Source: a virus
IMG/VR virus record: IMGVR_UViG_3300024258_000005
DNA: 64,000 nt
Direction: 5' to 3' (one strand)
The notes beneath the pieces are model-generated. The model was not told the origin of the DNA. It did not search any database and worked only from the letters and a program-made list of their open reading frames with translations. Made by a program: the position numbers and the translations under genes. Positions 561-18,421 of the stretch are shown here, piece by piece. Numbering within the stretch: the first letter of the stretch is position 1; every line of letters begins with the position of its first letter.

Positions 561-785
561 GAAGTAATAATCCTTCAGCTAAAAGGTATAAAATAATATT
601 TCCAAATGGAGATATTAATGAAATAAAAGGTTTAAAAAATTATTGCCGAGATAATAATTTTTCTTATTCATTACTTAGAAAATGGATAAATAAAGGAAAA
701 ATAACAAAATCAACGGATAAAGATAATAGTTTTGAAATCTTTGAATCAAAAAGAAAATTAAAAAATTTTGAAATATTGGAGTTAT

Positions 786-1361
786 ATGGCTAAATGGATA
801 ATTGATAAAATTGTAGGCGAGTTTGACTATGGTCACAATGTTTGGGTTCAGCATCTTGATGAAGTATTAAGTTGTGGTTCAAAACCAAAATGTTTACATA
901 GACATGGTCACAGAGGAAAGGTGGTTGCTTATTTAACAGCTGGCGAATTAACAGCTGCTTCAAAAAATATGGTTATTGATTTTAATGATATGAAAATTAT
1001 GACTAAGTTTATAGATGATACATTAGATCATAAATATTTAATTGATATTTCAGATCCTGCTAATTATGATACATTTCATCACTTTTGGGATCCTGATAAT
1101 AATAGTTTTAAAGATGATATTCTAGAACTTAAAGAAGAAGGACATTGGATTATAAAAGAAGAATTATATAATAATATGCCTCAATCTATGATTGATAAAT
1201 ATAGTTCATATGTTATTTTACCTTTTGTTCCTACATCAGAAAATCTTTCAAAATGGATGTATGATATAATGACTTCTAAAATGGCTGATACTGGAGTAAA
1301 AGTTCATAAAATTGAATGGTATGAAACACCGAAATCTCGAGCAACATTTTACGGTGACTAA
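786..1361 (+). CDS. queD: 6-carboxy-5,6,7,8-tetrahydropterin synthase (QueD/PTPS family)
   Basis: FDYGH, CLHRHGH, DHKYL, PTSENL and WYETPKSRA motifs; start moved to ATG 786, which has GGAG upstream (track used TTG 768). Confidence 0.9.
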   Translation: MAKWIIDKIVGEFDYGHNVWVQHLDEVLSCGSKPKCLHRHGHRGKVVAYLTAGELTAASKNMVIDFNDMKIMTKFIDDTLDHKYLIDISDPANYDTFHHFWDPDNNSFKDDILELKEEGHWIIKEELYNNMPQSMIDKYSSYVILPFVPTSENLSKWMYDIMTSKMADTGVKVHKIEWYETPKSRATFYGD

Positions 1362-2587: not shown

Positions 2588-3838
2588 ATGAAAGAATATA
2601 AAATAAAAGATATAAAAGATTTAGCTGCTCATTTAAAAACAATGGGCGCTTATGTTCAACAACCTAATCCACAAATTGTTGGTTTATCTAATACACAAGT
2701 AGTAGGTTCACAAGATGCCAAATCTTTATATCCAACGATAATGGTTCTTTTAAATATTGGATATGATACTCTTCGTGGAAGAATTTATGATTATGCAATC
2801 GTTGGCAAAGTACTTGAAATGTTTGATACTATCTTTGAAATGAGAGGTACATCAGAACAAGATATCATTGAAATTGGACTTAATAATTTTAAATCTGCTT
2901 TTAGAAATCTTGCTCGTGATTATACAACTCGTGAAAAGCTTAAAAACTCTAAAGCAGAATTCATAGAATTTACAACTGATTTTTATGGTGAATGTTTTAG
3001 AAAGATAGTTAATTATCAAGGAGCACTTGATGATATTTATACACCAAAAACTGATGAACAATACTATTTATTGAAGAGTGCATTGTATCCTTTATTAGAA
3101 GCGATGACATGGATACATCAAAAAAATAAAGGTTATAGTTCAATTGTAATCGATCATGTATTTTATAATGATGGTTTTAATGAGAAATATCAAGATAAGA
3201 AATTTGTAATCTTTAATGAAATTAATTCATCTAAGACACATGTTAAGATTTTAAATCTTGATCAATTTCATGATCAAATTTCATCAAAGTATATTTTAAA
3301 TCCATATGGCACATATTTTGATAAACATGATAATAATAAATCTTTCGAAGTTGATTTAATTTTGAAAGGTATGTCTGATCGTGGTTATGTAAAAAATCAG
3401 ATGCTTATAATTGAAGCGATTGTTGAAAACTGGGGAAAACTTTCTCAAGCTCAACAGATTGCTTTTGTTTTAGATGGTCAACATTTAGATCCGACAATAG
3501 CAGAACAAGTAGTAGACCTAGTTGGTGATTCAGATCCAGGTACAAAAGCTTGGCAATTGAAAAATCTAAAAGGTATTAAATTTGATACTATTGTAACAGA
3601 AGAGAAGTTAAATTCTCGATTAGGATTAGCTGCATCGCAGAGAAATTCTAAAAGTAACGGTATTAAGGTAACACTTAACTCCGGTTATGGTATTTATGGT
3701 ATGGCTACGTGGAACTATGGTAATAATTTAATTGCCAATAGCATTACATCAGGTGGTAAAATTTATGGAATTAAATTATTCCAGCAAATTGCATCTAATA
3801 AACTTAGAGTTGAAAGAGATAAAATAAAAGGACAGTAA
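2588..3838 (+). CDS. Family-B DNA polymerase fragment (motifs A and B only; split polymerase)
   Basis: GAYV..P, motif A QDAKSLYPTIM, motif B KVTLNSGYGIYG, ANSITSGG; ends before any DTDS motif C and has no exonuclease domain. Confidence 0.85.
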   Translation: MKEYKIKDIKDLAAHLKTMGAYVQQPNPQIVGLSNTQVVGSQDAKSLYPTIMVLLNIGYDTLRGRIYDYAIVGKVLEMFDTIFEMRGTSEQDIIEIGLNNFKSAFRNLARDYTTREKLKNSKAEFIEFTTDFYGECFRKIVNYQGALDDIYTPKTDEQYYLLKSALYPLLEAMTWIHQKNKGYSSIVIDHVFYNDGFNEKYQDKKFVIFNEINSSKTHVKILNLDQFHDQISSKYILNPYGTYFDKHDNNKSFEVDLILKGMSDRGYVKNQMLIIEAIVENWGKLSQAQQIAFVLDGQHLDPTIAEQVVDLVGDSDPGTKAWQLKNLKGIKFDTIVTEEKLNSRLGLAASQRNSKSNGIKVTLNSGYGIYGMATWNYGNNLIANSITSGGKIYGIKLFQQIASNKLRVERDKIKGQ

Positions 3839-5602: not shown

Positions 5603-5926
5603 ATGTATGACCATAGTAAATATATATTAGATAACATAAAAGTAGATGAATCAAAGCTTAAAGTGGGTGATTGGGTAAGAGATAACAAGAATAAATCCTG
5701 TCATATCTTTTGTATGGATGAACTATCTATTAATCATAAAGTAGATGACTTTGACACTAGGTTTAAACTATGGAAACCAACAGAAGGTGAGATGGTTTTC
5801 TATGAGATAAGTGAAACAGAGTTTACACTATTAGTATATACACCAGATGAGTGGCTGCAAGAGTTTGTATCTAAGACTAAGTTCTACCCGCTAGAATTTG
5901 CTATGACATTAAAGGATAAACAATGA
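5603..5926 (+). CDS. Hypothetical protein
   Basis: 107 aa, AAAGGATAA RBS, KLKVGDWVR and LWKP motifs. Confidence 0.65.
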   Translation: MYDHSKYILDNIKVDESKLKVGDWVRDNKNKSCHIFCMDELSINHKVDDFDTRFKLWKPTEGEMVFYEISETEFTLLVYTPDEWLQEFVSKTKFYPLEFAMTLKDKQ

Positions 5927-6282
5927 ATGAAATAACAATAGATGGAATAACATACGATATGGTAAAGAGAGATAGGCACCCTTGGCGAATGCCAAACATA
6001 AAAGAGCTACTAAGTGCAGTAGACTATGAGAAATGTGACCCTGCTACAAGTATGGAAGGATTTACTTCTAGGTTTTATTGGTCTTCTTCATCAAATGTTT
6101 CGGATTATAAGTATGCTTGGGGTGTAAACTTTAAGTATGGCTATTCCAGCTACTACCATAAGGCAAATGAGAATTATGTCTGGTGTGTTAGAACAGATGA
6201 AAATGGTACTCTTGTTTGGGGTAAATCAAGTGATTACCTAATGACTTGGGAAGATGCTCAAGAATGGTGTAAAAAACAATAA
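5923..6282 (+). CDS. Lcl C-terminal/DUF1566 (C-type-lectin-like) domain protein, circularly permuted
   Basis: WRMPNIKEL, YWSSS, AWGVNF..G and VWCVR, followed by GTLVW...MTWEDAQEWC, which is normally N-terminal. Confidence 0.75.
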   Translation: MNEITIDGITYDMVKRDRHPWRMPNIKELLSAVDYEKCDPATSMEGFTSRFYWSSSSNVSDYKYAWGVNFKYGYSSYYHKANENYVWCVRTDENGTLVWGKSSDYLMTWEDAQEWCKKQ

Positions 6283-6373
6283 ACAAAAGGTAAGTAATGC
6301 ATAAACAAGATTTCTGGAAGATTATAAGATGAGTCATGGTCATTGTATCATGAGCAAATACTAAGGAGCAGAA

Positions 6374-7639
6374 ATGAAAAAGATGCTAATCTTTGTCGAT
6401 GCAAAAGGCAATAAAAATAAGTTCTATCAATTAGAAATGATTGGTGATACTGTTGAAGTTGAATATGGCCGAGTTGGTAGTAATCCACAAAAACGATCAT
6501 ATTCTGGTGGTGAACGTACATTCAATAAAAAAATGAATGAGAAACTTAAAAAGGGTTATACCGAAAGTAAAGTTAACTTAGAAGTTATTGAAGAGATTAC
6601 TGGAAGTAAAGGAAATATGTTAGATATTGCTATGGAGCAAATAACAACAGATGATATTTCTAAATTACTTATAGCTGAATTAGTAAAACAAAATATTCAC
6701 AATATTACAAGTAATACAAAAATTAAATATGATATTGATACTGGTTATTTTAAAACAGCTCTTGGAATCATTACCCAAGAAGGTGTTGAAGAGGCGATTG
6801 AATTATTAACCGAAATTGAAACTTTTCAAGACAAAATGGGTAAACATTCAGATGCTGAGTACGATAAGTTTGTAAAACTTAATGAAAAGTATTTCAGTAT
6901 AATTCCAACAAAAATTCAAAATCTTAGAGATTATAAAAACTTACTTATTACAAATGAGAAAGTGGAATCTCAGATGGATATTTGTACCGCTCTTTTAAAT
7001 TCTTTGGATATTATTGAAGATGAGAAAGCTAAGATTAAAGCTAAAGATTCAGGAGAAACCATTATTTATGAGAAAGTATTTGAAGCAAGTGTTTTACATT
7101 TAACAGATAAAGTTGAATATAAAAGATTAGAAGATTATTTTCATGATTCTAAAAATAGAAGACATGGACATGGATCTTATAAGATTAGTAATATTTTTAG
7201 AATAAGTCTTGGAGAAGAAGAAAAAAATTATAGAAATGATCTTGATAATCAAGAAGAACTTTTTCATGGTACGAAGGTTTCTAATCTTTTAAGTATTCTT
7301 AAAAGTGGTTTACTGATGCCTAAATATTCCCCTGGTCAATCAACAGGTTATATGTTTGGTCAAGGTTTATACTTTGCTAGTCAAAGTACCAAAAGCTTAA
7401 ATTATTGTGATGGTATGTATTGGAATAATTCTAAATCACAAGATAAGATTTATATGTTTGTTGCTGATATTGCAATGGGTAATTATCAAGTACCAAGTTC
7501 AAGTCGAAGTAGAAAACCTGATGCAGGTTATGATTCATATTGGGCAAAACCTGGTAAATCCGGTATATCAAACGATGAAATGATTATTTTTGAAAACAAT
7601 CAAATTAAATTAAAGTATATTTTAGAGATTACAAAATGA
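6374..7639 (+). CDS. Poly(ADP-ribose) polymerase-like protein: WGR + helical/regulatory + PARP catalytic domain
   Basis: NKFYQL...YGRVG...KLKKGY (WGR); LFHGT, GYMFGQGLYFA, KSLNY and NDEMIIF give the H-Y-E triad. Confidence 0.9.
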   Translation: MKKMLIFVDAKGNKNKFYQLEMIGDTVEVEYGRVGSNPQKRSYSGGERTFNKKMNEKLKKGYTESKVNLEVIEEITGSKGNMLDIAMEQITTDDISKLLIAELVKQNIHNITSNTKIKYDIDTGYFKTALGIITQEGVEEAIELLTEIETFQDKMGKHSDAEYDKFVKLNEKYFSIIPTKIQNLRDYKNLLITNEKVESQMDICTALLNSLDIIEDEKAKIKAKDSGETIIYEKVFEASVLHLTDKVEYKRLEDYFHDSKNRRHGHGSYKISNIFRISLGEEEKNYRNDLDNQEELFHGTKVSNLLSILKSGLLMPKYSPGQSTGYMFGQGLYFASQSTKSLNYCDGMYWNNSKSQDKIYMFVADIAMGNYQVPSSSRSRKPDAGYDSYWAKPGKSGISNDEMIIFENNQIKLKYILEITK

Positions 7640-7692
7640 TAAGTAAAATAGTATTTATTATACTTATTATAATCGGTTATTTAAATTATGAA
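7636..7692 (+). CDS. Putative 18-aa hydrophobic peptide
   Basis: ATGA overlap with the PARP stop; MISKIVFIILIIIGYFKL. Confidence 0.3.
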
Positions 7693-7789
7693 ACGGGTTA
7701 TTATGGGTTTTAGAAACAATGCGCAATTTAGAAAAAGAAACAAAGTTGATTCAACAGAATCTACTCAAACACAAAATAAAGGAAATATA

Positions 7790-9007
7790 ATGAATAAAGA
7801 AATCACAGGAATTGATGCTAACTTACCAGATGGTGTAGTAAAAGAATTATACAAAAGAATTGACAAGTATATTGAATATTTACCAGAAGATGAAAGATAT
7901 TTTGCTAAGCAATTAATTATTTGGATTAGTGGTGATAACAGTGGAACAAGTTCTGTTAATACTGCAATCATTGAAAAGAGAAGTATGTTTATGATCTTTA
8001 TGGCAATTGGTAAAAGAAAACAATTTAATGTTGATAGTGATCCAAAATACATTATGTTATATAAAAAATATCAAACACATATGGAAGTAAAATATAGTTT
8101 ACAGATTCCTTCTTGGCAAGAATTATCAGACTTTTATTCATATCCTGCAATGACTGCTGATATTTTTAAGGTTGAGATTAAAAAACATGATGATGATATT
8201 CAAAGATTTGTGAAAGCAAGTCAGGTGGAAAAAGAGATTAATGATGTTCCTGACGCAGTATCTTTTATTCCAACACAAACAGATGTTGATCGTCTTGGTA
8301 AAGTAAAGGACCGTGTAGTGAAAAATATTAGTGAAAATTATGAAAAATGTATAGAAGCAGCTGTTGATTTAGATATGGATACTTTTGGTTTTATGAAACC
8401 TGTTATTGAAGAATTTAAAGGTGATAAAGGCACCATGAATACTTTTCTAAAAGCATTAGATAATAAGAATCCTTTAAAGCTTTTCGAAGCGGCTACAAAA
8501 CGTAAACCAAAAAGTGAAAAACTTAAAACTATTTTAGAGCAATATGTAGAATTTATTGATGATATGAAAAAAACTGATGAGGCGGCTGCACATACAGCTA
8601 CTGATGAAGTTGCTGTTGATGTGTTTAAGGTGTTTAATGACGCTTCAAAATCACAATGTCATACTACACCTGATGTAGGTGCAACTCGTGGAGATACTCA
8701 AAAAGTTCCTTTCGTTGCAAAAGAACTATTAATGTTAAATAAAGTAGAAATTGTTCAACATATTGATCAGATGATGTTAAAAATTATAAATGATACTGTT
8801 TCAACATTTGGTGTTGAATTTGAGAGTTTCAATGATTATGAAAATGAAATTTTTAATGAAGCAATTGTTTCGTTGAAAAAACGTCACCAATTTGAAATAT
8901 ATGGTAGATGTCAATCTCTTCGTGAGATGATTGCACTATTAGATATTTATGTTAATAGACGCGGACATAATATGTTATCACATGTTATTGAAACTTACGA
9001 AGCTTAA
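7790..9007 (+). CDS. Hypothetical alpha-helical protein
   Basis: Long ORF; start moved to ATG 7790 after AAGGAAA (track start 7688). Confidence 0.8.
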   Translation: MNKEITGIDANLPDGVVKELYKRIDKYIEYLPEDERYFAKQLIIWISGDNSGTSSVNTAIIEKRSMFMIFMAIGKRKQFNVDSDPKYIMLYKKYQTHMEVKYSLQIPSWQELSDFYSYPAMTADIFKVEIKKHDDDIQRFVKASQVEKEINDVPDAVSFIPTQTDVDRLGKVKDRVVKNISENYEKCIEAAVDLDMDTFGFMKPVIEEFKGDKGTMNTFLKALDNKNPLKLFEAATKRKPKSEKLKTILEQYVEFIDDMKKTDEAAAHTATDEVAVDVFKVFNDASKSQCHTTPDVGATRGDTQKVPFVAKELLMLNKVEIVQHIDQMMLKIINDTVSTFGVEFESFNDYENEIFNEAIVSLKKRHQFEIYGRCQSLREMIALLDIYVNRRGHNMLSHVIETYEA

Positions 9008-9016
9008 AGGGTAAAA

Positions 9017-10051
9017 ATGTTATTAGAATTCGTCACAATGAAAGATCCACATCTTTCATTTGGTTTTCAAAATAGAATTCGAAAGAACTATGAGAAACAT
9101 ATTAGTCAAAAGTTAGAGTTTGTTAGAGGTTATGCTTTATCAAATAATATAGATACTGTTGTTTTTACAGGTGATGTTTTTGATTCTAGTACAGAAGATA
9201 AATGGTCATTTAAAAAATACAGAAAGAATAAAAGAGCACTTGAAGAATTTAAAGGTTCAGAATTAAAGCTTTATTCAAATGTTGGTAACCATGATATGTT
9301 TCATGGTTATGAAGAATCTGAAGATACTATCTTCGGTGAAATGGTTCATGATAATATTTTAATAAACTTAACTAAAAATCCTTTAGTTCATATGGAAAAT
9401 ACATCTGTTATAAAAGTTCAAGGTGTTGATTATTCAAATGAAAATAATATTGTTCTTGAGAACATTAGAGTTTTTGATGAAGAAGCATATCCTGGATATG
9501 ATGTATTTAAAGTTTGTGTGTTACATTCTAATGTAACACCGAATGAAGTAAAAAGAGTTACAGACTTTACTTATAAATCATTAGCTGAAAAATTTCCAGA
9601 TATTGATGTTTTTATATTAGGTCATTACCATGTTGGTTATGATACTACTACTATGAAACGAGAAGGTGGTAAAGATATAACTTTTATAAACAATTGGAAC
9701 TTTACTCGTGTAGTAAGAGATTATGAAGTTGAATTAGATGAACATTCTCCTGAGTTTGAACATGTATCAATTCAATTTGATAATATTACTAAACAGTTTA
9801 ATTTGGAAACTAAAACTATTAAGGTACCATTCGTTACTTACAATGAAGCTTTTTCTGCAAAAGATATTGATATATTAAAGAAGAGTAAAAAAGAAATTTT
9901 TAACTTTTTTGAAGATATAAATTTTGAAGATATAAAAGTAGATAGTAAAAAAGATGATGATACTTTAATTACAAAAATAGTTGAAGAAAATGAATATACT
10001 GAGGGTGCTATGAATTGCGCCCTCGAGTATTTAAATAATGCACAAGGATAA
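9017..10051 (+). CDS. sbcD: Mre11/SbcD-like metallophosphoesterase nuclease
   Basis: DPH, FTGDVFD, VGNHD, VLH and LGHYH motifs. Confidence 0.85.
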   Translation: MLLEFVTMKDPHLSFGFQNRIRKNYEKHISQKLEFVRGYALSNNIDTVVFTGDVFDSSTEDKWSFKKYRKNKRALEEFKGSELKLYSNVGNHDMFHGYEESEDTIFGEMVHDNILINLTKNPLVHMENTSVIKVQGVDYSNENNIVLENIRVFDEEAYPGYDVFKVCVLHSNVTPNEVKRVTDFTYKSLAEKFPDIDVFILGHYHVGYDTTTMKREGGKDITFINNWNFTRVVRDYEVELDEHSPEFEHVSIQFDNITKQFNLETKTIKVPFVTYNEAFSAKDIDILKKSKKEIFNFFEDINFEDIKVDSKKDDDTLITKIVEENEYTEGAMNCALEYLNNAQG

Positions 10052-10053
10052 AC

Positions 10054-11697
10054 ATGCAAGGTACAAATAGACCCTCAATATTACAATTAAGCATAATGAA
10101 AATATTTGCAACAGATACAAAAACATCAAAATATTTAGAAAAACGTTTTGAGTTAGATGATGAAGCATTTATTGATGCTGCTAAAAAGCAACGTCCGAAA
10201 AATAGAAAGTTGATTGATTTTTTAGATGAACGTAGAGTTCATTTAGAAAATACAGTTCCACCTGAAGTCGAAGAAGAAGTTGCTGAGACTGAACCTGAGA
10301 CTGAACCTGAGACTGAACCTGAGATTAGTAAAGATGATCAAATTCTTTTACAACTAAGAGAAATCTTTGCAAAAGATTCTGGTACACTAAAAAGAATTAA
10401 TCGTAATTATGTGCAAGGTGTCGTCGGTGAAGCATTAGTTGTTATTGCTTTAAAGGCTAGACCTAAAAATGCTAAAACTTTAGCAATATTACATGAGATC
10501 AGATTTGGTCCTAAACGTGTTGTAGAAGAAGAAGATGTTGTAGATGATACATGGTCTAAAGAAGTTGCTGATAAAGTGTCTAAAGAAGATGATGAAGTAA
10601 AAGTTACAACAGCTGCTGGTAAATATGATAATGTTGTAGTAGGCAAAATAAAAGGTAAAGTTGAAAAAATTGGTAAAGTTTCACATGTAGCTGAAGGTTT
10701 TGATGTTCGTGCTAAACTATTAGTTGCATTCTCAACAGATACTGGCACTTTAAAAGCAATCAATAAAAAGATTGGTAAGAATATTGGTGATGATGATTTA
10801 ATTGAAATGTGTTTAAGTCGTCGTCCTAAGAATGCAAAACTTAAAGCAATAATGAAAGACTTATCAGATTTTAGAGAATCAGAAGATGATGTTCGAGAAT
10901 TTGAAGGTGATGACTCAATCGTAGGTGATTACGAAATTAAAGCACAGATGAAAGTTGATAATATTCCATATGTTCAAAATGATGATAAAAATTTAACTAT
11001 GTTTATTAATGGTGAGATGGAAGTAATTAATAATGAACATCCAAATTTTAAAAAGATAGTAAAATGTCTTGAAGAAGAAAAATGGAATGATATTATACCA
11101 ATGCTTGATATTCGTTGTAGTGTTGCAAATTTAGTTTATAAGCAATTGGAGTTTAAAAATGATACTCTTTATCATGAAGGTAAAGAATTAGATGGAGCAC
11201 TTATTGATTTCATTTTAGCAATGGTGGAATCAGGTGAAAATGATATTCAACCATTTATGAGATTCTTACATAAGTTATTAAAGAATCCAAGTAAACGAGC
11301 ACAAAAAGAACTTTATAGTTTTCTAGCATCAGGTAAGATTCCAATTAATGAGAGAGGCAATATTCTAACTTATAAACGTATTAATGAAAACTGGACTGAT
11401 TGTCATTCTGGTAGTATTAGTAATAAAGTTGGTGAAACTGTTTCAATGGAAAGAGGTAAAGTTGATGATAGAAGTACTGTAACTTGTTCTCAAGGTTTAC
11501 ATGTTTGTTCATATAGTTATCTTTCATCATTCGGTGGAGGTAGAACAGTTATATGTGAAGTTAATCCTTTAGATGTTGTTTCAATTCCTTCAGATTATCG
11601 GAATGCGAAAATGAGATGTTGTAAATATACAATTCTTAAAGAAATTAAGAATAACGAAGCAGATGTACTTTCAGAAAGTCCTATCTACTTTAAATAA
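10054..11697 (+). CDS. rIIB: rIIB-like protein with a long repeated N-terminal extension
   Basis: HPNF, FL..LLKNPS, YKRI..NWTDCHSG, TCSQGLH, VNPLDVVSIPSDY..AKMRCCKY. Confidence 0.9.
   Translation: MQGTNRPSILQLSIMKIFATDTKTSKYLEKRFELDDEAFIDAAKKQRPKNRKLIDFLDERRVHLENTVPPEVEEEVAETEPETEPETEPEISKDDQILLQLREIFAKDSGTLKRINRNYVQGVVGEALVVIALKARPKNAKTLAILHEIRFGPKRVVEEEDVVDDTWSKEVADKVSKEDDEVKVTTAAGKYDNVVVGKIKGKVEKIGKVSHVAEGFDVRAKLLVAFSTDTGTLKAINKKIGKNIGDDDLIEMCLSRRPKNAKLKAIMKDLSDFRESEDDVREFEGDDSIVGDYEIKAQMKVDNIPYVQNDDKNLTMFINGEMEVINNEHPNFKKIVKCLEEEKWNDIIPMLDIRCSVANLVYKQLEFKNDTLYHEGKELDGALIDFILAMVESGENDIQPFMRFLHKLLKNPSKRAQKELYSFLASGKIPINERGNILTYKRINENWTDCHSGSISNKVGETVSMERGKVDDRSTVTCSQGLHVCSYSYLSSFGGGRTVICEVNPLDVVSIPSDYRNAKMRCCKYTILKEIKNNEADVLSESPIYFK
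10285..10323 (+). repeat. In-frame 12-bp tandem repeat (ETEP x3)
   Basis: GAGACTGAACCT x3 plus GAG. Confidence 0.9.
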
Positions 11698-11703
11698 AAA
11701 ACG

Positions 11704-11731
11704 ATCTTTAAAGATTTCGATCTTTAAAGAT
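11704..11731. repeat. Two copies of palindrome ATCTTTAAAGAT
   Basis: Copies at 11704-11715 and 11720-11731, intergenic between rIIB and rIIA. Confidence 0.9.
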
Positions 11732-11743
11732 CATAATGTCATG

Positions 11744-11752
11744 TGATATAAC
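11744..11752 (+). promoter_or_regulatory. Extended -10-like promoter element upstream of rIIA
   Basis: TG-A-TATAAC resembles TGnTATAAT, about 35 nt before the ATG. Confidence 0.4.
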
Positions 11753-11786
11753 CACAAATAAAAATAAAATTATATAAGGAAAAAAA

Positions 11787-14450
11787 ATGATAATTCAAGA
11801 TGAAAAATCAATAGTAAAAATGAACGGAGCACTTGAAACTGCTGACTTTGAAATTAAAACAGATGATGGAAAAATGTTTCACATTCTTTCAAATCTTTAT
11901 TCTAATCCATTAGGCGCAGTAGTAAGAGAATTAAGTACAAACTGTGGAGATGGTCATAAAATTGCAGGAAGTGAAGAATTACCTTTTGATATTATTCTAC
12001 CTGGTAGAATGGATAGCGGTAACTTTATTACTTTTCGTGATTATGGTCCTGGTATGCCACATGATGTGGTTATGAGTATTTTTACTACATTTGGTCAAAG
12101 TACTAAATCTGGTTCAAATACAGAAACTGGTTGTTTAGGTTTAGGGAGTAAATCTCCTTTAGCTATTACTGATTCATTTACGGTTACAAGTGTTAATGAT
12201 GGTTTTAAAACAACATATTCCGTATCAAAAGATGCTCAAAGAAAACCAGTACTTGCTAAATTTGGAAGTATTGAAACAGAAGAAGAAAATGGTTTAAGTG
12301 TAACTGTTCCTTTATCAAGTACACATCAAAATAATGTTATGAATGAAATTATTTCACAACTAGAATTCTTTAAAGTTAAACCAAATGTTTATAATGGTGA
12401 TAAAGAAATTAATATGAATTGGAATGATAATTCAAGATTCTTTTCTTTAACTGATGAGATATTTATTAAAGAAAAAAGATATGATAAGGATTCTAGAATC
12501 ATTCAAGGTGAGATTGGTTATTCATTTAACAGTTCAACTTTAATTAATACGTTTGTTATTGATGATAAAGATCAACATAAATTAGAATTTTTGGAAGTTA
12601 AAGATCAACATATTTCTAGAGAAACTTTTGAGATATTAAATAAATTTTTTAATAGACATGAGTTGCAGATTTATATGCCAATGGGTACTGTAACATTTGC
12701 TCCTTCGCGTGAAGAGCTAATTTATGATATATTAACTTGTCATAATATTATGGAACAACTATTAAAAAGTATTCAACTTATTGGTCATAAATATAAAGAT
12801 ATTTATGACCTTGTTGAAAACACTTATCAGTATAGACAAATCAGACAAGGTTATTCTAGTTCAAGTGAATATATTGCTGGTCTAGATGATAAAATGAAAC
12901 GATTTATGTCTATTATTGGATGGGGTTTTGAAAATTCATTTCGTACTAAATGGAAATTATTAGATGGTACAGACGCTAATATAAACATAGGTCCAATTAA
13001 AAGTTTTCCTAAGTTTAATCAATTTATTGAGCTTCGTCATATGACATATAATCCTTGGTCTTTCCAGATTCAAACGAAAAATATGATTACAAAAAAGAAA
13101 GACCGTTGGTCAAGTCCAGATGAAGTTACAATCTCATCCGGTCCAATTTATGATTTCGTTGATAAAGTGAATTATAAAAATATCAAGTTTGTTCTTGTAG
13201 CTAAAGATGAAAAGTTTCATAAGAAGCACATCAATAATTATTTAACTTCTGTTAATACAGGTAAAAATGGTTTAGGTGATACAATAGATGTTGTTATGAT
13301 TAAGACTTTAGATATACATGCAACAGATGAGATGCAAAAAGAGTTTATAAAGTATTGTGGATTATCTCCTGAAAATGCTTTACATTATGAGAAAGTTCTT
13401 GAAATTTCTCAAGAGTTAATTGATTCAGGTAAGGCACCTGTTAAAGCATATGAAAGCAAACCTAAAACTTTACGATACGCTTACTTAAAAAACGTTTCTA
13501 GAGATAATAGAAATTGGAGTACTGCGGAAGTAACATCAAAAACAATTAAAGAAGATTTGATTGGTTTATATATCCCAACTTTCAATAATAAGATTATTTT
13601 TAAAAATTCAACAAAAGAGTTGTATCCTGAGTTATGGAGCATAGTTGAAAGACCAAGAACAAAAGAAGATGGTTTAAGTTATCTTTTAAAATTTTTAAAC
13701 ACTTTTGGTCATAAGATTAATTTTGATATTAAGCTTTATAGTGGTCATGAAAATAATTTTAAAACTACCCAACTAGTTCACCTTGAAGATTTTATAAATG
13801 CTGTTGTTGCTAAATCTAGATATCAAAATGCTTGGCATGCTTTAAATCGTACACAAAAAACATTCAATGGTAATATTACACAAGTGGATTCTGTTTCTAC
13901 TTTTGTAAATAATATTGATTTTTATAGTGGAATATATGATGGTAAAATATCTGATAGACATAAAACTTTATTAGCTAAAATACAAAAAGAAATGAAACCA
14001 TTAAAGGATTGGTTTTTTAAAGATGAACATCCAATTATAGCATTATATGAAAAGTGTAAAAAGTATAATGTTCGAAATGATTATATGGGTATACTTCAAA
14101 ATACAAATCTAATTAATTATCCGGAAGAATTAAAAATTATAGGCGGTTATTTAGATGTTAAATTTGATTTTGTTAACTTAGATGTTGATTTTGTTAAGGT
14201 TGATGATATGTATAACTTAGGTGAATTTAGAAGTTCAAATAATTTTAAATATGGTTACAATCAGGTTTCTGATATGTTTACACGATTAGAAAATACATTA
14301 TATTCAATCAATAAGCAAGACTTTATGGAAGAATTTGCACCAGGCTTAAATACATTTGGAAGAATTCCAGTAGTTATTGATGACGAAGAAGAACAAGATA
14401 GTGCTATTAATAAGCATGATTCTACCGAGGTAGAATTGGTAGCTGAATAA
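11787..14450 (+). CDS. rIIA: rIIA-like protein (N-terminal GHKL/Hsp90-like ATPase)
   Basis: LYSNPLGAVVRELSTN, RDYGPGM, FGQSTK, GCLGLGSKSP; adjacent to rIIB. Confidence 0.9.
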   Translation: MIIQDEKSIVKMNGALETADFEIKTDDGKMFHILSNLYSNPLGAVVRELSTNCGDGHKIAGSEELPFDIILPGRMDSGNFITFRDYGPGMPHDVVMSIFTTFGQSTKSGSNTETGCLGLGSKSPLAITDSFTVTSVNDGFKTTYSVSKDAQRKPVLAKFGSIETEEENGLSVTVPLSSTHQNNVMNEIISQLEFFKVKPNVYNGDKEINMNWNDNSRFFSLTDEIFIKEKRYDKDSRIIQGEIGYSFNSSTLINTFVIDDKDQHKLEFLEVKDQHISRETFEILNKFFNRHELQIYMPMGTVTFAPSREELIYDILTCHNIMEQLLKSIQLIGHKYKDIYDLVENTYQYRQIRQGYSSSSEYIAGLDDKMKRFMSIIGWGFENSFRTKWKLLDGTDANINIGPIKSFPKFNQFIELRHMTYNPWSFQIQTKNMITKKKDRWSSPDEVTISSGPIYDFVDKVNYKNIKFVLVAKDEKFHKKHINNYLTSVNTGKNGLGDTIDVVMIKTLDIHATDEMQKEFIKYCGLSPENALHYEKVLEISQELIDSGKAPVKAYESKPKTLRYAYLKNVSRDNRNWSTAEVTSKTIKEDLIGLYIPTFNNKIIFKNSTKELYPELWSIVERPRTKEDGLSYLLKFLNTFGHKINFDIKLYSGHENNFKTTQLVHLEDFINAVVAKSRYQNAWHALNRTQKTFNGNITQVDSVSTFVNNIDFYSGIYDGKISDRHKTLLAKIQKEMKPLKDWFFKDEHPIIALYEKCKKYNVRNDYMGILQNTNLINYPEELKIIGGYLDVKFDFVNLDVDFVKVDDMYNLGEFRSSNNFKYGYNQVSDMFTRLENTLYSINKQDFMEEFAPGLNTFGRIPVVIDDEEEQDSAINKHDSTEVELVAE

Positions 14451-14461
14451 AAGGAGATACG

Positions 14462-16450
14462 TTGGAAGAAACATTTGATGTTGTAAAATTCAAAATGAAT
14501 AGTCATAAACAGAACATCGATACATTATCGCAAAAGATAACACAAGATGAAGCTGAGTTATTAACTGTTCAACAAAAGATGAAAGATTTAGGTGATGCAA
14601 AAAGTATCTTAACAATTCTAAAAAATTATAAGATGGAATCTAAAAAAGATTTCATTCTTAAAACAATTAACACCGCACTCGAAGATGTATTTGATCAAAA
14701 CCTTAGAGTAGATATTGAAGCAATGTCTGCAACAAGTACTGGTAAAATTAACATGAAGTATGATATTGTTCTTTATCAGAATGATATTGAAATGGCTCGT
14801 AATGAAAAACTTTTAGGTAATAATGGTGGTGGGGTATTAAGTTTTATTAGTATTCTATTTAAAGTTCTTGTTGGTTATATTTACTCTGATAATAAATTCT
14901 TTTTATTTGATGAAAGTATAGCTCAAGTTAGTCCTTTGTATCGTCCTAGGTTAGCACAATTCTTAAGAAAGTTTTGTGAAGAATATAAATTTACTTTAGT
15001 TCTTATTAGTCAGACAGATGATATAGATGAATATGCCCATGTTGGTTATTATCTTGATGGAGAATTTGATGAAAATAATGTTCCTCTTTTAAAGATTGAT
15101 CATGTCATGGGTGAATATCCTACTGATAAATATGTCTACACTAAGATTGAAAATTTTCAAAGTATAGTTAAACTTGAATTTCGGTATAAAGGTTTTACTG
15201 TTATTCGTGGAAATAATAATATTGGTAAGAGTGCATCTTTTAGAGCTGTTAATGCAATTCTATTTAATACATTTGATGTAAAAGATCATCCTAGAAAACT
15301 TAGACCTCGTGGTGCAGAATCTAAAATCTTATTTGGTTTCTATGATTCCGAAGCAGAAGAAGATAATAGAAGTATTAGTTTAAAATACAAATCAAATAAA
15401 GTTGTATATGAATTTGATGGTAATACATTCTCTGGTAAAAGTTTAGCTTTTGATAAAGTTAAAGAGAAGGTTGAAAGTATTGGATTTAAATATGTTGACT
15501 TAAAAGAAACATATAAGAATTTTAAAGGTAATTTAAAAGATCAAACTGAAAGATTAGCAATGACTTCTCAGCATGATGGTTTTTATCTTGTTGGCAATAA
15601 AGCTTCTGAAACAGAAAAGGTTTTTAACTTTCTATTTGATAGCACTGAAGTAGCTAATGCTATATCATCTGTTACTATTGATATAAATATTAATCATAAT
15701 ATATTTAATGCTCTAAATGATGCTGTTGTTTTAAATAAAGGTAATCTAGAGAAAGAAAAAATTAATTATGATATATATGTTTATAAATATTATGTTAGTA
15801 TGATTACAACGCATATAACTAACGCATACGCCCTAGAACATAAGGCTCATATCAAAGTAACTGTTGAGGATTTAATTGCAAATATCGATACTTATATGAT
15901 GATTACACTAGGTATTGATAGTTTAGTAGAGAATAGAAATATTCTAATACAATTACAAAATACTAATGTAAAAAATAGAGAAACTATAGTAGATGAATTA
16001 ATTGAATATAGTACTTATTTAGATAAGCTTTATACGTATTTTAATGATCATGAAAAGCATAAGATTGCAAATGATAAAATGCTAGTTGTTGAAGCTGGTA
16101 TTTTAAAGTACTCGAAGTTGGAAGTTATTGCAAATGATATATACAGTCTCGAATACTATATAAATTCAATTAGTAAATATAATGATGATTTGGTAAGATT
16201 AGATTCTTTAAAACATAATAATGCTAGTTTACGATTTAGTGTTTTAAATGAATTGATTGATAGTGAACCACATTACCAATCATTAACTAATGCTATAACT
16301 CAGTATCAAAGAAATCTAGATAAAGTAGAAACATTAAAAGATAAAGATTATAGTATCTTAAATTCTATGTCTAATCTAGATAAAGAATTTGGTATAGCGA
16401 TTTGTGGTACGTGTGGAGGTTCCGGTCATATATTCGGAGAAGGACATTAA
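14462..16450 (+). CDS. sbcC: Rad50/SbcC-like ABC ATPase, circularly permuted
   Basis: Signature GNNGGG and Walker B FLFDES come before IENFQS and Walker A GNNNIGKS; C-terminal CGTC hook; TTG start with AAGGAG. Confidence 0.85.
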   Translation: MEETFDVVKFKMNSHKQNIDTLSQKITQDEAELLTVQQKMKDLGDAKSILTILKNYKMESKKDFILKTINTALEDVFDQNLRVDIEAMSATSTGKINMKYDIVLYQNDIEMARNEKLLGNNGGGVLSFISILFKVLVGYIYSDNKFFLFDESIAQVSPLYRPRLAQFLRKFCEEYKFTLVLISQTDDIDEYAHVGYYLDGEFDENNVPLLKIDHVMGEYPTDKYVYTKIENFQSIVKLEFRYKGFTVIRGNNNIGKSASFRAVNAILFNTFDVKDHPRKLRPRGAESKILFGFYDSEAEEDNRSISLKYKSNKVVYEFDGNTFSGKSLAFDKVKEKVESIGFKYVDLKETYKNFKGNLKDQTERLAMTSQHDGFYLVGNKASETEKVFNFLFDSTEVANAISSVTIDININHNIFNALNDAVVLNKGNLEKEKINYDIYVYKYYVSMITTHITNAYALEHKAHIKVTVEDLIANIDTYMMITLGIDSLVENRNILIQLQNTNVKNRETIVDELIEYSTYLDKLYTYFNDHEKHKIANDKMLVVEAGILKYSKLEVIANDIYSLEYYINSISKYNDDLVRLDSLKHNNASLRFSVLNELIDSEPHYQSLTNAITQYQRNLDKVETLKDKDYSILNSMSNLDKEFGIAICGTCGGSGHIFGEGH

Positions 16451-17082
16451 TGAAAAATGTATTATTTATTCTAGCACATATGGACGATGAATCATTCAGT
16501 GCTGGAACAATTAAGAAAATGGTTGATAAAGGAATAATTGTTACAACACTAATTGTATGTGGTAATGGATATGTTTTATCTGATGATAGACGAGCAATCA
16601 TAGAAAAGAATTTAAAACTATTGGGTGTTGTTGGTTTTACATTACAATATTTTGATTTATCTCTTAGTGATTTAAAACAAGATGTTTATGGTGAAATTAA
16701 AGAGTCTATTCAAAAATTAATTATGAGCACAAGAGCTGATACAGTCTTTACTAATAACAGTGGCGATTTGCATCCTGATCATAAAATTATTAGTAATTTG
16801 GTAAGGACAGTTTGTCGTCCAAGTTCAACAACTGTTAAATCACTATATGAATGTTATATTCCTGGTAGCACTGAATACGGAGAAGGTATTAATGCTTTTA
16901 CGACTGTTGTTGATGTATCAGAATATCTTTCTGTAAAGATGAAATGTCTTGAAAATTATGGTACAAGTTTAAAAGCTGCAACAAGTGTTGATAGTGCTTT
17001 AAATGCTAGTTCATATTTTGGAAGTATGAATGGTTATAAATATGCTGAAATATTTAAACCAATCTTTACTGAACTACTATGA
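16450..17082 (+). CDS. PIG-L/LmbE-family N-acetyl-sugar deacetylase
   Basis: AHMDDE and HPDH motifs; start moved to 16450 (TAATG overlap). Confidence 0.85.
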   Translation: MKNVLFILAHMDDESFSAGTIKKMVDKGIIVTTLIVCGNGYVLSDDRRAIIEKNLKLLGVVGFTLQYFDLSLSDLKQDVYGEIKESIQKLIMSTRADTVFTNNSGDLHPDHKIISNLVRTVCRPSSTTVKSLYECYIPGSTEYGEGINAFTTVVDVSEYLSVKMKCLENYGTSLKAATSVDSALNASSYFGSMNGYKYAEIFKPIFTELL

Positions 17083-17382
17083 ATTTAAAACAAACTAAAT
17101 TAGAGTCTGGTATTGAGCAAGTTGCAAATATGGGTTCGGGTTTCTTTACTTAGTGTATTTGCAACTCAACCTTTAGCATTAGGTACTAAAACTTTCTTTA
17201 CTTTACATAATTTTAGAAACATTAATCATATTTATATTGGTGAATCAAAAATAGTACCATATACTGATGGATTAGAATATTTTAATGTTGCAGATTTTTT
17301 TAGTAGAACTGATAATATTATAAATAGGTTAAATGAACTTTTAAACCTAAAATTATATAAGGAACCAAATGAAATTAGATAA
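17079..17382 (+). pseudogene. Apparently frameshifted small membrane-protein gene
   Basis: ATGA-coupled ORF MNLKQTKLESGIEQVANMGSGFFT stops at 17153; the +1 frame continues VSLLSVFATQPL. Confidence 0.4.
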
Positions 17383-18421
17383 TAGAGATACTATGGTGAC
17401 ATGGTTTTGTCAAAATTATAAACCTTTAGTTGATGGAATGAAAGAGATTTCACATTTTCCATCTCACAGAACGAATCATCCATTTCATGGTGAAGGTCCT
17501 GTATGGACTCATGTGTTAATGGTAATGACTCATATACAATGTGATGAAACTTTAAGCTCAACCAATAAACAAGTTTTATTAACTGTTGGTTTGCTTCATG
17601 ATATTGGTAAAGTTAGTGCTCATCAAGTAAAAGATGATGGTGAAAAATATTCATTTGAGGGACATGAAGGACTTAGCTTTTTTAAAGCATTAGATATCCT
17701 TGATCACATGGAAAAAGAGGATGATTTCTATAGTAACTTTATGAAACTTACGATTGCAAGAATGGTAAGTTTACATGGAACTGGAATTATTTTTGATGAA
17801 GGAAGTACTGATTATTATTTAGCTCATCGTTTTAGAAAAGCAGATAAAGAAGGTGCAATTAGAAATATTGATGAAAATATATTTGCACAATATCCAAAAA
17901 GAAAAATATCATCAAGAGCTAAAGTTGAAAAAGATAAACATGTTATACTTATGTGTGGATTACCTGGTTCAGGAAAAACTACAGTTGTGGGCGAATATAA
18001 TGGATACTATATTGTATCAAGAGATAATTATATGGAAAAATATTATTATTTATATAATGAAAAAGGTTTAGAAACATCCAATGATATATATCATTGGATT
18101 TATTCTGAAGAAAATTTGCCAAATTTTAATATGGATTTTGATAGATATTTAAATAAAGTAGCAAAAGAACAAGATAAAGTTATAGTTGATATGACATTAT
18201 TGACTGCAGGTAAAAGACGAAACATGTTAAATAGATTTTCAAAATTTAATGCAACATGTGTATGTTTACTAACTGGAGAAAAAGAATTTCATAGAATTAA
18301 TGACCAGCGTGAATTAGAAGGTAGTGGACTTTCTAAAGAACGTTTTAGAGAATTAAAAAAGAAGTTTATATTTCCAATCGAAGCGGAAGGCTTTGAACAG
18401 ATACATGTTAGGACTCGATGA
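17369..18421 (+). CDS. HD-domain phosphohydrolase fused to P-loop (polynucleotide-kinase-like) kinase
   Basis: HGEGPVWTH...LLHDIGK; GLPGSGKTT; VIVDMT...R. Confidence 0.85.
   Translation: MKLDNRDTMVTWFCQNYKPLVDGMKEISHFPSHRTNHPFHGEGPVWTHVLMVMTHIQCDETLSSTNKQVLLTVGLLHDIGKVSAHQVKDDGEKYSFEGHEGLSFFKALDILDHMEKEDDFYSNFMKLTIARMVSLHGTGIIFDEGSTDYYLAHRFRKADKEGAIRNIDENIFAQYPKRKISSRAKVEKDKHVILMCGLPGSGKTTVVGEYNGYYIVSRDNYMEKYYYLYNEKGLETSNDIYHWIYSEENLPNFNMDFDRYLNKVAKEQDKVIVDMTLLTAGKRRNMLNRFSKFNATCVCLLTGEKEFHRINDQRELEGSGLSKERFRELKKKFIFPIEAEGFEQIHVRTR

What the first reader, a model, noticed from the sequence alone, without database searches (positions are those of the whole stretch)
6374..7639. Eukaryote-like PARP (WGR, helical and catalytic domains, H-Y-E triad) in a phage
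Seen: a WGR domain, a helical domain (NIH.IT...LG.IT, KYFSIIP) and a catalytic domain with HGT, GYMFGQGLYFA and NDEM. Established: this is the DNA-break-activated core of PARP1-type enzymes; H-Y-E is associated with polymer synthesis; T4 Alt/Mod are unrelated mono-ADP-ribosyltransferases. No PARG or macrodomain is visible in the window. Inference: the phage may make PAR or ADP-ribosylate DNA ends or host proteins for repair (sbcD and sbcC are nearby), host takeover, or NAD+ manipulation against NAD-dependent defence systems.
Basis: partly seen in the sequence, partly recalled or inferred. Interest (0 to 1): 0.8.

Follow-up and report, generated by a model that had tools for sequence, protein, structure and literature searches.

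The report
Phage PARP enzyme with helical partner
An uncultured large AT-rich phage carries an intact three-domain PARP, the enzyme type that tags proteins with ADP-ribose when DNA is broken. Such phage PARPs are already catalogued but untested, and the new detail is a small unknown helical protein that almost always sits beside the gene in this lineage.

Summary
ORF 6374-7639 (+, 421 aa) has WGR, helical regulatory and PARP catalytic domains, all above Pfam cut-offs. H298-Y333-E402 and the nicotinamide-pocket residues are invariant across 72 homologues. The AlphaFold model (pLDDT 89) matches PARP2 and PARP1 WGR-HD-ART structures over all three domains. dN/dS is about 0.1-0.2.

It is not a novelty. 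Phage PARPs were listed by Perina 2014 and by Iyer 2021 and 2022, Klebsiella phage FBKp34 has an annotated homologue at 45% identity, and this scan has reported phage PARPs on other DNA at least 17 times. No phage copy has been assayed.

In my tree the window's subclade joins a well-supported clade with Klebsiella-phage PARPs and the fungal Pyl1 class. Pyl1 is a proven polymer-forming PARP.

What is specific here:
- The gene sits between a DNA polymerase fragment and an SbcD-like nuclease, rIIB and rIIA.
- It is flanked in 18 loci by an unannotated helical domain of about 95 aa, here the C-terminus of ORF 7688-9007, which evolves much faster than the PARP.
- No Macro, PARG, ARH, NADAR, NUDIX or NAMPT gene lies in the 181.6 kb held (about 65% complete).

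Whether it makes polymer, its targets and its role in infection remain untested.

The parts
6363..6368 (+). Shine-Dalgarno AAGGAG, 5 nt before the ATG of the PARP gene
   Evidence: Read directly from the sequence.
6374..7639 (+). PARP gene, 421 aa (WGR-HD-ART)
   Evidence: AF2 model pLDDT 89.1, pTM 0.82. Foldseek top hits are PARP2 7aeo and PARP1 8g0h and 4dqy_C, E 1e-22 to 4e-24. dN/dS is 0.08-0.23 against five homologues.
6374..6571 (+). WGR domain (residues 1-66), with YGR in place of WGR at 31-33
   Evidence: Pfam PF05406, E 2e-10. Among 72 homologues position 31 is Y in 39, W in 26 and F in 4; G32 is present in 68 and R33 in 71. Tyrosine is also the commonest residue at this position in bacterial PARPs (PMC5966428).
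6617..7048 (+). Helical (regulatory, HD) domain, residues about 82-225
   Evidence: Pfam PF02877 at residues 112-208, E 9e-7, above cut-off. Model helices at 82-89, 94-113, 135-149, 160-176 and 194-225. The 'LG.(I/L)(T/S)' and 'Y..IP' motifs align to the PARP1 HD.
7088..7636 (+). ART catalytic domain, residues about 239-421. Triad codons: H298 at 7265-7267, Y333 at 7370-7372, E402 at 7577-7579
   Evidence: Pfam PF00644, E 1e-30. Aligned to PARP1. Triad invariant in 72 of 72 homologues.
7688..9007 (+). Partner gene, longest ORF 439 aa. The likelier start is ATG 7790, which has an AAAGGAA upstream. No family match.
   Evidence: No Pfam, PHROG, NCBIfam or PADLOC hit. Start site read. Clusters with genes adjacent to the PARP in related loci.
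8714..8998 (+). Conserved PARP-linked helical domain (residues 343-437 of the partner ORF)
   Evidence: A profile built from alignment A3 hits 18 proteins in the fetched loci, all within three genes of the PARP and all in the window's subclade, plus one copy in the own genome. A database search found only 18 proteins, with no Pfam family and no informative name. At least 10 of them have a longest-contig length equal to that of a PARP-bearing contig. AF2 gives four helices, pLDDT 93.5. No informative structural match.
9017..10051 (+). Metallophosphoesterase, distantly SbcD/Mre11-like. Conserved third gene of the block.
   Evidence: Pfam Metallophos, E 6.5e-8. TIGR00619 sbcd E 8e-6, far below cut-off. 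PDB SbcD and Mre11 E 0.08-0.3. Syntenic in L003, L065, L067, L068, L072 and L093.
10054..14450 (+). rIIB (10054-11697) and rIIA (11787-14450), as context
   Evidence: PHROG 609, E 1e-70, and PHROG 612, E 4e-81. Syntenic in relatives.
2588..3838 (+). Family B DNA polymerase fragment. Conserved upstream anchor of the block.
   Evidence: PHROG 262 DNA polymerase, E 1.4e-18. Cluster 2 lies upstream of the PARP in L003, L065, L066, L067, L068 and L072.

Best explanation
ORF 6374-7639 encodes a functional PARP-family ADP-ribosyltransferase of the compact WGR-HD-ART type found in phages and bacteria. The proposed mechanism is inferred from PARP1-3, from Herpetosiphon and C. difficile PARPs and from yeast Pyl1. 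The WGR domain binds a DNA break or end, which relieves autoinhibition by the helical domain. The H-Y-E active site then uses NAD+ to ADP-ribosylate the enzyme itself and proteins nearby, probably as short or long polymers. The gene is co-oriented with the phage's replication and recombination block (polB fragment, SbcD-like nuclease, rIIB/rIIA, Dda helicase, RNR). It most likely acts on DNA ends that arise during infection, together with the lineage-specific helical protein encoded next to it, which would be either a cofactor or the acceptor. Shown here: the domains, the catalytic residues, the fold, purifying selection, clade placement, and linkage to the partner. Inferred: catalytic activity, DNA dependence, polymer formation, the targets and the timing of expression.
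For: All three domains score above Pfam cut-offs. The triad and the nicotinamide pocket are invariant in 72 homologues. The model matches DNA-bound PARP2 and PARP1 WGR-HD-ART chains over about 480 aligned columns, E about 1e-23. dN/dS is 0.08-0.23. The protein falls in a well-supported clade (SH-aLRT 100) with Klebsiella phage FBKp34 PARP and the fungal Pyl1 class. Pyl1 auto-PARylates, PARylates Ku70/80 and binds dsDNA (PMC12412787). HaPARP and CdPARP make PAR with activated DNA (PMC5966428, PMC4245714). The order polB fragment, PARP, partner, SbcD-like, rIIB, rIIA is conserved in relatives. The partner domain is adjacent to the PARP in all 18 loci where it was found. It is rare elsewhere in the database.
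Against: No phage PARP has been assayed. H-Y-E enzymes can be mono-transferases, as PARP4 shows. The residue aligned to PARP1 Y986 is Asn400, and the stretch between the 'GN' motif and the catalytic Glu is about 20 residues shorter than in PARP1, so the product length cannot be predicted. Pyl1 activity did not depend on added DNA (PMC12412787). No eraser gene was found in the 181.6 kb held, so reversibility is unsupported, although about a third of the genome is missing. Gene neighbourhood in a phage is weak evidence of shared function. The promoter and terminator scan gave nothing above chance.
Confidence: 0.6

Rival explanations
1. Nucleic-acid end capping. The enzyme ADP-ribosylates phosphorylated DNA (or RNA) termini rather than proteins. 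This would mark or shield phage genome ends and recombination intermediates from host exonucleases, or block the ends of host DNA.
For: The architecture is the PARP2/PARP3-like WGR-HD-ART. Nucleic acids are established substrates of ADP-ribosylation (abstract of PMC8385414, listed and not opened). That PARP2 and PARP3 in particular modify phosphorylated DNA ends in vitro is stated from memory. In other phage clades the PARP lies next to Rnl1-type RNA ligase, NUDIX and MazG-like genes. In Cellulophaga phage phi17:2 it lies between a tRNA nucleotidyltransferase and, one gene downstream, a DNA ligase. The window itself carries PNK-like and CCA-adding-type genes 10-14 kb downstream.
Against: No NADAR or Macro eraser is present in the held record. 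The nearest characterised relative, Pyl1, modifies proteins (PMC12412787). The end-processing genes are not adjacent to the PARP in the window's own subclade.
Confidence: 0.15
2. Host take-over. Breaks in the degrading host chromosome switch the enzyme on. It then modifies host proteins (nucleoid, repair or transcription factors) or drains NAD+ to shut down the host.
For: Iyer et al. propose that phage PARPs act like T4 ARTs on host proteins but add polymers (PMC7824862). The gene lies in the block of early and middle-type genes, all on the + strand. No eraser gene was found, which would fit an irreversible modification.
Against: The phage needs NAD+ and nucleotide pools for its own large replication programme, and no NAD salvage gene was found to compensate. 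Nothing here identifies a host target. The host itself is unknown.
Confidence: 0.15
3. Counter-defence module. The fast-evolving partner recruits the PARP to a variable host defence protein, which is inactivated by ADP-ribosylation.
For: The partner domain is 38% identical in the locus where the PARP is 88% identical. Its dN/dS is 0.35-0.69 against 0.08-0.23 for the PARP. Partner length varies from 84 to 439 aa, with added N-terminal modules.
Against: dS is near saturation, so the ratios are rough. Nothing matched PADLOC or any known anti-defence family. Weak constraint on a small helical protein would explain the divergence equally well.
Confidence: 0.07
4. A catalytically dead relic, or a DNA-end-binding protein only.
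For: None specific. Activity is untested.
Against: Every catalytic and NAD-pocket residue is invariant. Purifying selection is strong. The model is confident.
Confidence: 0.03

Closest known systems
Klebsiella phage vB_KpM_FBKp34 gp111 (QQV91759.1), annotated 'poly [ADP-ribose] polymerase', with homologues in phages 05F01 and KP13-16
   Same: Full-length WGR-HD-ART at 44-45% identity over 99% of the protein. Same well-supported clade in the tree. Untested.
   Different: Sister subclade. The genomic context differs (no partner domain, no SbcD-like or rII neighbours; a weak Macro-like gp105 lies about 2.4 kb upstream). The host is an enterobacterium rather than an unknown host of an AT-rich phage.
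Yarrowia lipolytica Pyl1 and the fungal Pyl1-class PARPs (Yarrowia, Smittium, Coemansia, Dipsacomyces, Hesseltinella)
   Same: 38-47% identity with E 1e-85 to 1e-103, far closer than vertebrate PARP1 or PARP2. Shared YGRVG, STKSLNYCD and NDE motifs in the Mucoromycota and Kickxellomycotina rows. Same well-supported clade. Pyl1 is a proven PARylating enzyme in a lineage without PARG (PMC12412787).
   Different: Yarrowia proteins carry a coiled-coil insert in place of a recognisable PARP_reg domain and are 575-631 aa long (PMC12412787). They are eukaryotic nuclear proteins acting on Ku70/80 at telomeres. The fungal clade nests beside the Klebsiella-phage subclade, not beside the window's.
Bacterial PARPs: Herpetosiphon aurantiacus HaPARP and Clostridioides difficile CD160 CdPARP
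   Same: Compact WGR(-HD)-ART proteins with H-Y-E. They make PAR in vitro with activated DNA and are inhibited by PARP inhibitors (PMC5966428, PMC4245714, PMC8120803).
   Different: Each is paired with a functional PARG in the same genome. None was found here.
Human PARP2, PARP3 and the PARP1 WGR-CAT module (PDB 7aeo, 6x0l, 4dqy, 3c49)
   Same: Same three-domain fold and catalytic residues.
   Different: Only 16-21% identity. The phage protein has no zinc fingers, BRCT or N-terminal extension. It has Y in place of the WGR tryptophan and Asn in place of PARP1 Y986, and the stretch before the catalytic Glu is shorter.
Jumbo-phage PARPs such as Xanthomonas phage XacN1 BBA65562.1, cited by Iyer et al. 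2021
   Same: Same architecture at 31-33% identity. Published as 'viral versions of PARPs' (PMC7824862).
   Different: A separate large clade of 40 rows, with other downstream genes of about 200 aa. The downstream gene is annotated vWA in XacN1, and families 1 and 2 share an N-terminal domain.

Membership tests
PARP / PART family (Pfam PF00644; H-Y-[EDQ] clade of ARTs) | ART catalytic domain scoring above the family threshold | tested here: met
   107.2 bits against cut-off 26.7, E 1e-30. PHROG 23333, E 2e-49.
PARP / PART family (Pfam PF00644; H-Y-[EDQ] clade of ARTs) | H-Y-E triad and nicotinamide pocket (Gly after His; Ser and Tyr of the SxxxY motif) | tested here: met
   H298, G299, Y333, K340, S341, Y344 and E402 align to the PARP1 residues. 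They are invariant or nearly invariant in 72 homologues.
PARP / PART family (Pfam PF00644; H-Y-[EDQ] clade of ARTs) | The structure superimposes on the PARP fold | tested here: met
   The AF2 model (pLDDT 89) against PARP2 7aeo and PARP1 4dqy_C and 8g0h: E 1e-22 to 4e-24, TM by query 0.50-0.66.
DNA-dependent PARPs (PARP1-3 type, WGR-HD-ART) | WGR domain N-terminal to the catalytic region | tested here: met
   PF05406, 41 bits against cut-off 22. YGR replaces WGR, as in many bacterial PARPs (PMC5966428).
DNA-dependent PARPs (PARP1-3 type, WGR-HD-ART) | Autoinhibitory helical domain (PARP_reg) | tested here: met
   PF02877, 29.5 bits against cut-off 26.8, covering 93 of 135 profile positions. 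Helices are present in the model.
DNA-dependent PARPs (PARP1-3 type, WGR-HD-ART) | Activity stimulated by DNA breaks | not testable with these tools
   Needs an enzyme assay. Pyl1, the nearest characterised relative, did not need added DNA (PMC12412787).
Poly(ADP-ribose) polymerases in the strict sense | Synthesis of ADP-ribose polymers | not testable with these tools
   H-Y-E is necessary but not sufficient, since PARP4 is a mono-transferase. Clade-mate Pyl1 makes PAR (PMC12412787).
Reversible PAR system (PARP plus PARG, Macro or ARH eraser) | An eraser gene in the same genome | tested here: not met
   No match at E<=1 for PF01661, PF10021, PF05028 or PF03747, and none at E<=0.1 for PF08719, in the 181,622 bp record. 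The record is about 65% complete, so absence from the whole genome is not shown. XacN1 has a Macro gene elsewhere in its genome.
T4 Alt/ModA/ModB-type ARTs (R-S-E clade) | R-S-E catalytic motif and Alt/VIP2 or Mod family match | tested here: not met
   The only ART family matched is PF00644, with H-Y-E.
   ORF 9017-10051: Metallophos passes its cut-off, sbcd scores 25.8 bits against cut-off 77.65. ORF 14462-16450: AAA_23 scores 22 bits against cut-off 27, matching only the Walker-A region.

The most novel reading that the evidence does not exclude
The PARP and the adjacent, fast-evolving helical domain of about 95 aa form a dedicated two-protein module confined to this phage subclade. The partner would be an accessory factor that sets the PARP's target or residue specificity (functionally like HPF1 for PARP1/2), or the designated acceptor that carries the ADP-ribose signal to the neighbouring SbcD-like nuclease. 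This would be the first handle on what a phage PARP acts on.
Probability: 0.2. Interest if true: 0.6.

Novelty: new member of a known kind. Interest (0 to 1): 0.33.

Why it matters
Phage PARPs are a frequent but entirely untested class of viral ADP-ribosyltransferases. This copy adds three things. It is a well-conserved member of the subclade sister to the one holding the only characterised relative, yeast Pyl1. It has a fixed position within a replication and recombination gene block. It has a strictly linked, unannotated partner protein that can be co-expressed and tested. If the partner proves to be a cofactor or substrate, that would open the biochemistry of phage PARylation. The nesting of the fungal Pyl1 class among phage PARPs fits the published idea that eukaryotes acquired ARTs from phages. 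By itself, the presence of a PARP in a phage is not new.

Tried and rejected
- **Partner fold and family.** Foldseek against the PDB gave nothing with E<0.7. VIA-align wide gave Z<=7.0, generic helical bundles within the noise range for helical models. The ESM Atlas gave scores of 0.88 or less and no family. Pfam, PHROG, NCBIfam and PADLOC gave nothing. An earlier scan note spoke of a 'winged-helix partner' in other PARP clades. The partner here is all-helical, and its profile hits nothing in the other phage clade, so I do not equate the two.
- **Canonical eukaryotic PARPs as outgroup.** The 'longer' protein search returned only three ankyrin- or WGR-containing metagenomic proteins. Only score differences place those outside.
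- **Context of long contigs.** I used the search for related loci instead.
- **Genome-contig scan.** A2 worked but found only 3 loci.
- **Host.** A copy at 63% identity lies on a 93 kb contig binned as Sulfurovum. That contig has GC 38-40%, a transposase nearby and no rIIA. Only 1 of 301 genomes sampled from that MAG's phylum (Campylobacterota by the record title) has a PARP domain. The host stays unknown, and 'gained from the host' is not supported.
- **NAD-related partners.** No NAMPT/NAPRTase, NADAR, NAD-dependent ligase or NUDIX was found in the record.
- **Operon signals.** Promoter-like and terminator-like sites are not enriched over shuffles.
Full report
**Observation.** The ORF at 6374-7639 (+) is real. 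It encodes 421 aa and is preceded by AAGGAG five bases before the ATG.
- Pfam finds WGR (residues 1-66), PARP_reg (112-208) and PARP catalytic (248-392), each above its curated cut-off. PHROG 23333 matches end to end at E 2e-49.
- Against PDB sequences the best matches are chicken and human PARP1 and PARP2 HD-ART fragments, E about 6e-18. HGT aligns on H862-G863, GLYFA on Y896, STKSLNY on K903-S904-Y907 and NDEM on E988. The numbering is that of human PARP1, from my knowledge; the alignment itself is.
- In an alignment of 72 homologues, H298, G299, Y333, K340, Y344 and E402 are invariant, and S341 is present in 68.
- AlphaFold2 with that alignment gives pLDDT 89.1 and pTM 0.82. Foldseek then returns DNA-bound PARP2 (7aeo, 6x0l) and the WGR-CAT chain of PARP1 (4dqy_C, 8g0h) at E 1e-22 to 4e-24, aligned across all three domains.
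- Against five homologues of 71-88% identity, dN/dS is 0.08-0.23, with dS near saturation.
Its own refutation test, that the structure does not superimpose on the PARP fold, comes out in its favour.

**Genome.** The window is part of an IMG/VR virus record of 181,622 bp, linear, estimated about 65% complete by CheckV. GC is 24-35%.
- Genes on the + strand from 1 to 49.5 kb include a family B DNA polymerase fragment, rIIB and rIIA, a Dda-like helicase, NrdA and NrdB, ThyX and a CCA-adding-type nucleotidyltransferase.
- There are no tRNA genes in the window.
- Megablast finds no close cultured phage.
- rIIA is at most about 32% identical to that of cultured phages.

**How common it is.**
- tblastn against cultured phages finds full-length homologues in Klebsiella phages FBKp34, 05F01 and KP13-16 (44-45% identity) and in Xanthomonas phages XacN1 and Xoo-sp13 and Stenotrophomonas phages CM1 and RAS14 (31-33%). 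Two uncultured phage records match at lower identity (26% full-length; 33% over the catalytic domain). It finds catalytic-domain matches in Cellulophaga phages phi4:1 and phi17:2. FBKp34 gp111 is already annotated as poly[ADP-ribose] polymerase with all three domains.
- The exhaustive representative search gives 3459 clusters at E<1e-3 and 316 at E<1e-30, most about 420 aa long.
- IMG/VR holds at least 57 loci, many on contigs of 300-545 kb. One metagenome scan returned 78 more.
- The literature already records phage PARPs. Perina et al. 2014 list Aeh1 and phi4:1 (PMC4245714). Iyer et al. 2021 note them in jumbo phages, citing XacN1 (PMC7824862). Iyer et al. 2022 rank PART/PARP among the most frequent viral ART families and infer transfers from phages to eukaryotic viruses and to eukaryotes (PMC9503650).
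- This scan itself has reported phage PARPs on other DNA at least 17 times.
- I found no paper reporting an assay of a phage PARP.

**Phylogeny.** A quick IQ-TREE (LG+C20 PMSF, 92 rows, SH-aLRT only) gives the following picture.
- A well-supported clade of 45 rows (SH-aLRT 100) splits into two parts.
- The first part is the window's subclade of 20 rows (support 91). Its nearest rows are L003 and P0002 at 78% identity, and it includes the copy from the Sulfurovum-binned contig.
- The second part is a subclade of 25 rows (support 92). It holds Klebsiella phage FBKp34 and, nested within it, a fungal clade (support 99) of Yarrowia, Hesseltinella, Coemansia, Dipsacomyces and Smittium.
- The other large phage clade of 40 rows, which includes XacN1, is sister to these 45 rows.
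- The fungal proteins score 300-364 bits against the window protein, whereas vertebrate PARP1 and PARP2 score 60-68 bits. They share the YGRVG, STKSLNYCD and NDE motifs.
- I followed up a lead from an earlier scan note. Yarrowia lipolytica Pyl1 has been characterised. It auto-PARylates, PARylates Ku70/80, binds dsDNA, did not need added DNA in vitro, and sits in yeasts in which no PARG was found (PMC12412787).
- Pyl1 is therefore the closest characterised relative and the best argument that this clade can make polymer.
- Caveats: canonical eukaryotic and characterised bacterial PARPs could not be put in the tree, so there is no root. Support values come from a quick search.

**Neighbourhood and the partner.** I clustered ORFs from the loci whose PARP is at least about 50% identical to the window's.
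- The recurring order is polB fragment, one or more small ORFs, PARP, partner, SbcD-like metallophosphoesterase, rIIB, rIIA.
- The partner is defined by a C-terminal domain of about 95 aa, residues 343-437 of window ORF 7688-9007.
- That domain stands alone as an ORF of 84-116 aa in eleven loci (L004, L005, L069-L071, L075, L076, L078, L079, L081-L083). It forms the C-terminus of longer proteins of 178-439 aa in the others.
- A profile of the domain hits 18 proteins in the fetched loci. All lie within three genes of the PARP, either upstream or downstream. None lies in the 50 or so loci of the other phage clade, and the own genome has exactly one copy.
- A search of the 5.8-billion-protein database finds only 18 proteins, none with a Pfam family or an informative name.
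- AlphaFold predicts four helices with pLDDT 93.5. Structure searches return only generic helical bundles.
- The partner diverges far faster than the enzyme: 38% against 88% identity in L065, and dN/dS 0.35-0.69, which is a rough figure.
- ATG 7790 has a better ribosome-binding site than ATG 7688.
- The tight linkage suggests a functional pair, but I have no evidence on what the partner does.

**Erasers and NAD metabolism.** The held record has no match to Macro, bacterial or eukaryotic PARG, or ARH at E<=1, and no match to NADAR, NAPRTase/NAMPT, NAD-dependent ligase or NUDIX at E<=0.1. About a third of the genome is missing, so this cannot be generalised to the whole phage. XacN1 has a Macro gene far from its PARP. 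FBKp34 has only a sub-threshold Macro-like match, gp105, about 2.4 kb upstream of its PARP.

- ORF 9017-10051 is a metallophosphoesterase with weak SbcD/Mre11 similarity at its N-terminus: Pfam E 6.5e-8, TIGR00619 25.8 bits against cut-off 77.65, PDB SbcD E 0.08. It is a conserved member of the block.
- ORF 14462-16450 has only a sub-threshold AAA_23/OLD/GajA-like Walker-A region.
- A Mre11-like nuclease two genes downstream is plausible. An SbcC is not shown.

**Host.** One copy at 63% identity lies on a 93 kb contig binned as a Sulfurovum MAG. That region has GC 38-40%, a transposase and large proteins of unknown function, and the MAG has no rIIA. Only that genome among 301 sampled from its phylum (Campylobacterota by the record title) has a PARP domain. 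The gene is therefore not a typical gene of that phylum, and the host of the window's phage remains unknown. The low GC fits that guess, but I did not test it further.

**Mechanism.** The best-supported reading is an active PARP-family enzyme in which WGR senses DNA ends and the HD gates the H-Y-E site. It would be expressed with replication and recombination genes and would work with its partner. Three questions stay open.
- Protein versus nucleic-acid acceptor.
- Mono versus poly product. The Asn at the position of PARP1 Y986 and the shorter stretch before the catalytic Glu are family traits. That Y986 influences polymer length and branching in PARP1 is from memory.
- Phage-directed versus host-directed action.

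**Verdict.** This is a real, intact and almost certainly functional PARP, and it is a new member of a known but untested kind. The interest lies in the linked partner gene and in the clade relationship to Pyl1, not in the presence of a PARP in a phage.

Noticed in passing
window 32171-35914 and 29888-32134: NrdA (1247 aa) carries an intein with a LAGLIDADG homing endonuclease (Intein_splicing, Hint and LAGLIDADG_3 at about residues 213-649). NrdB (748 aa) matches its family in two separated stretches, which suggests an insert there too.
   Followed up: partly
window 768-1361: A QueD/6-pyruvoyl-tetrahydropterin synthase gene (PF01242, E 9e-23), as found in phage 7-deazaguanine DNA-modification pathways. 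The other pathway genes were not looked for.
   Followed up: no
window 17369-18421, 19814-20551, 21576-22958: A loose set of RNA-end-processing-type genes: an HD plus AAA_33 (PNK-like) protein, a PolyA_pol/CCA-adding head-domain protein, and a PHROG 388 nucleotidyltransferase. In other phage clades the PARP sits directly beside Rnl1-type RNA ligase, NUDIX and MazG-like genes.
   Followed up: partly
L007-L014, L020-L022, L026 (family 1); L013, L029, L033, L034, L047, L050-L055 (family 2): In the other large phage PARP clade, two families of unannotated proteins of about 200-300 aa lie downstream of the PARP in 19 loci, directly after it in about a dozen. They share an N-terminal domain of about 75 aa (hhalign probability 96%). 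They have no Pfam match and are unrelated to the window's partner.
   Followed up: partly
L057 / L073 (contig binned as Sulfurovum MAG, 93,411 bp): A PARP 63% identical to the window's lies in a GC 38-40% region with a transposase and a 1018-aa PHROG 7301 protein. It is the only PARP domain found in 301 genomes sampled from that MAG's phylum. It could be a mobile island or a mis-binned virus.
   Followed up: partly
L146 (Klebsiella phage FBKp34 42834-43187, gp105 'putative phosphatase'): A sub-threshold Macro-domain match (E 1.4e-3, 15.5 bits) about 2.4 kb upstream of that phage's PARP. It is a possible divergent eraser.
   Followed up: no
window 5923-6282: The gene directly upstream of the PARP encodes a 119-aa Lcl_C/DUF1566 domain protein (E 3.5e-21). 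It is not conserved next to the PARP in relatives.
   Followed up: partly
window 16402-17082 and 40016-44902: A PIG-L family deacetylase overlaps the end of the ATPase gene. A 1628-aa ORF has no Pfam match.
   Followed up: no
window 7688-9007, residues about 75-116 and 236-288: The long partner forms share a second module of about 55 aa, N-terminal to the conserved domain. The window's protein has two weak copies of it (BLAST E 0.001-0.007), which suggests expansion by internal duplication.
   Followed up: partly
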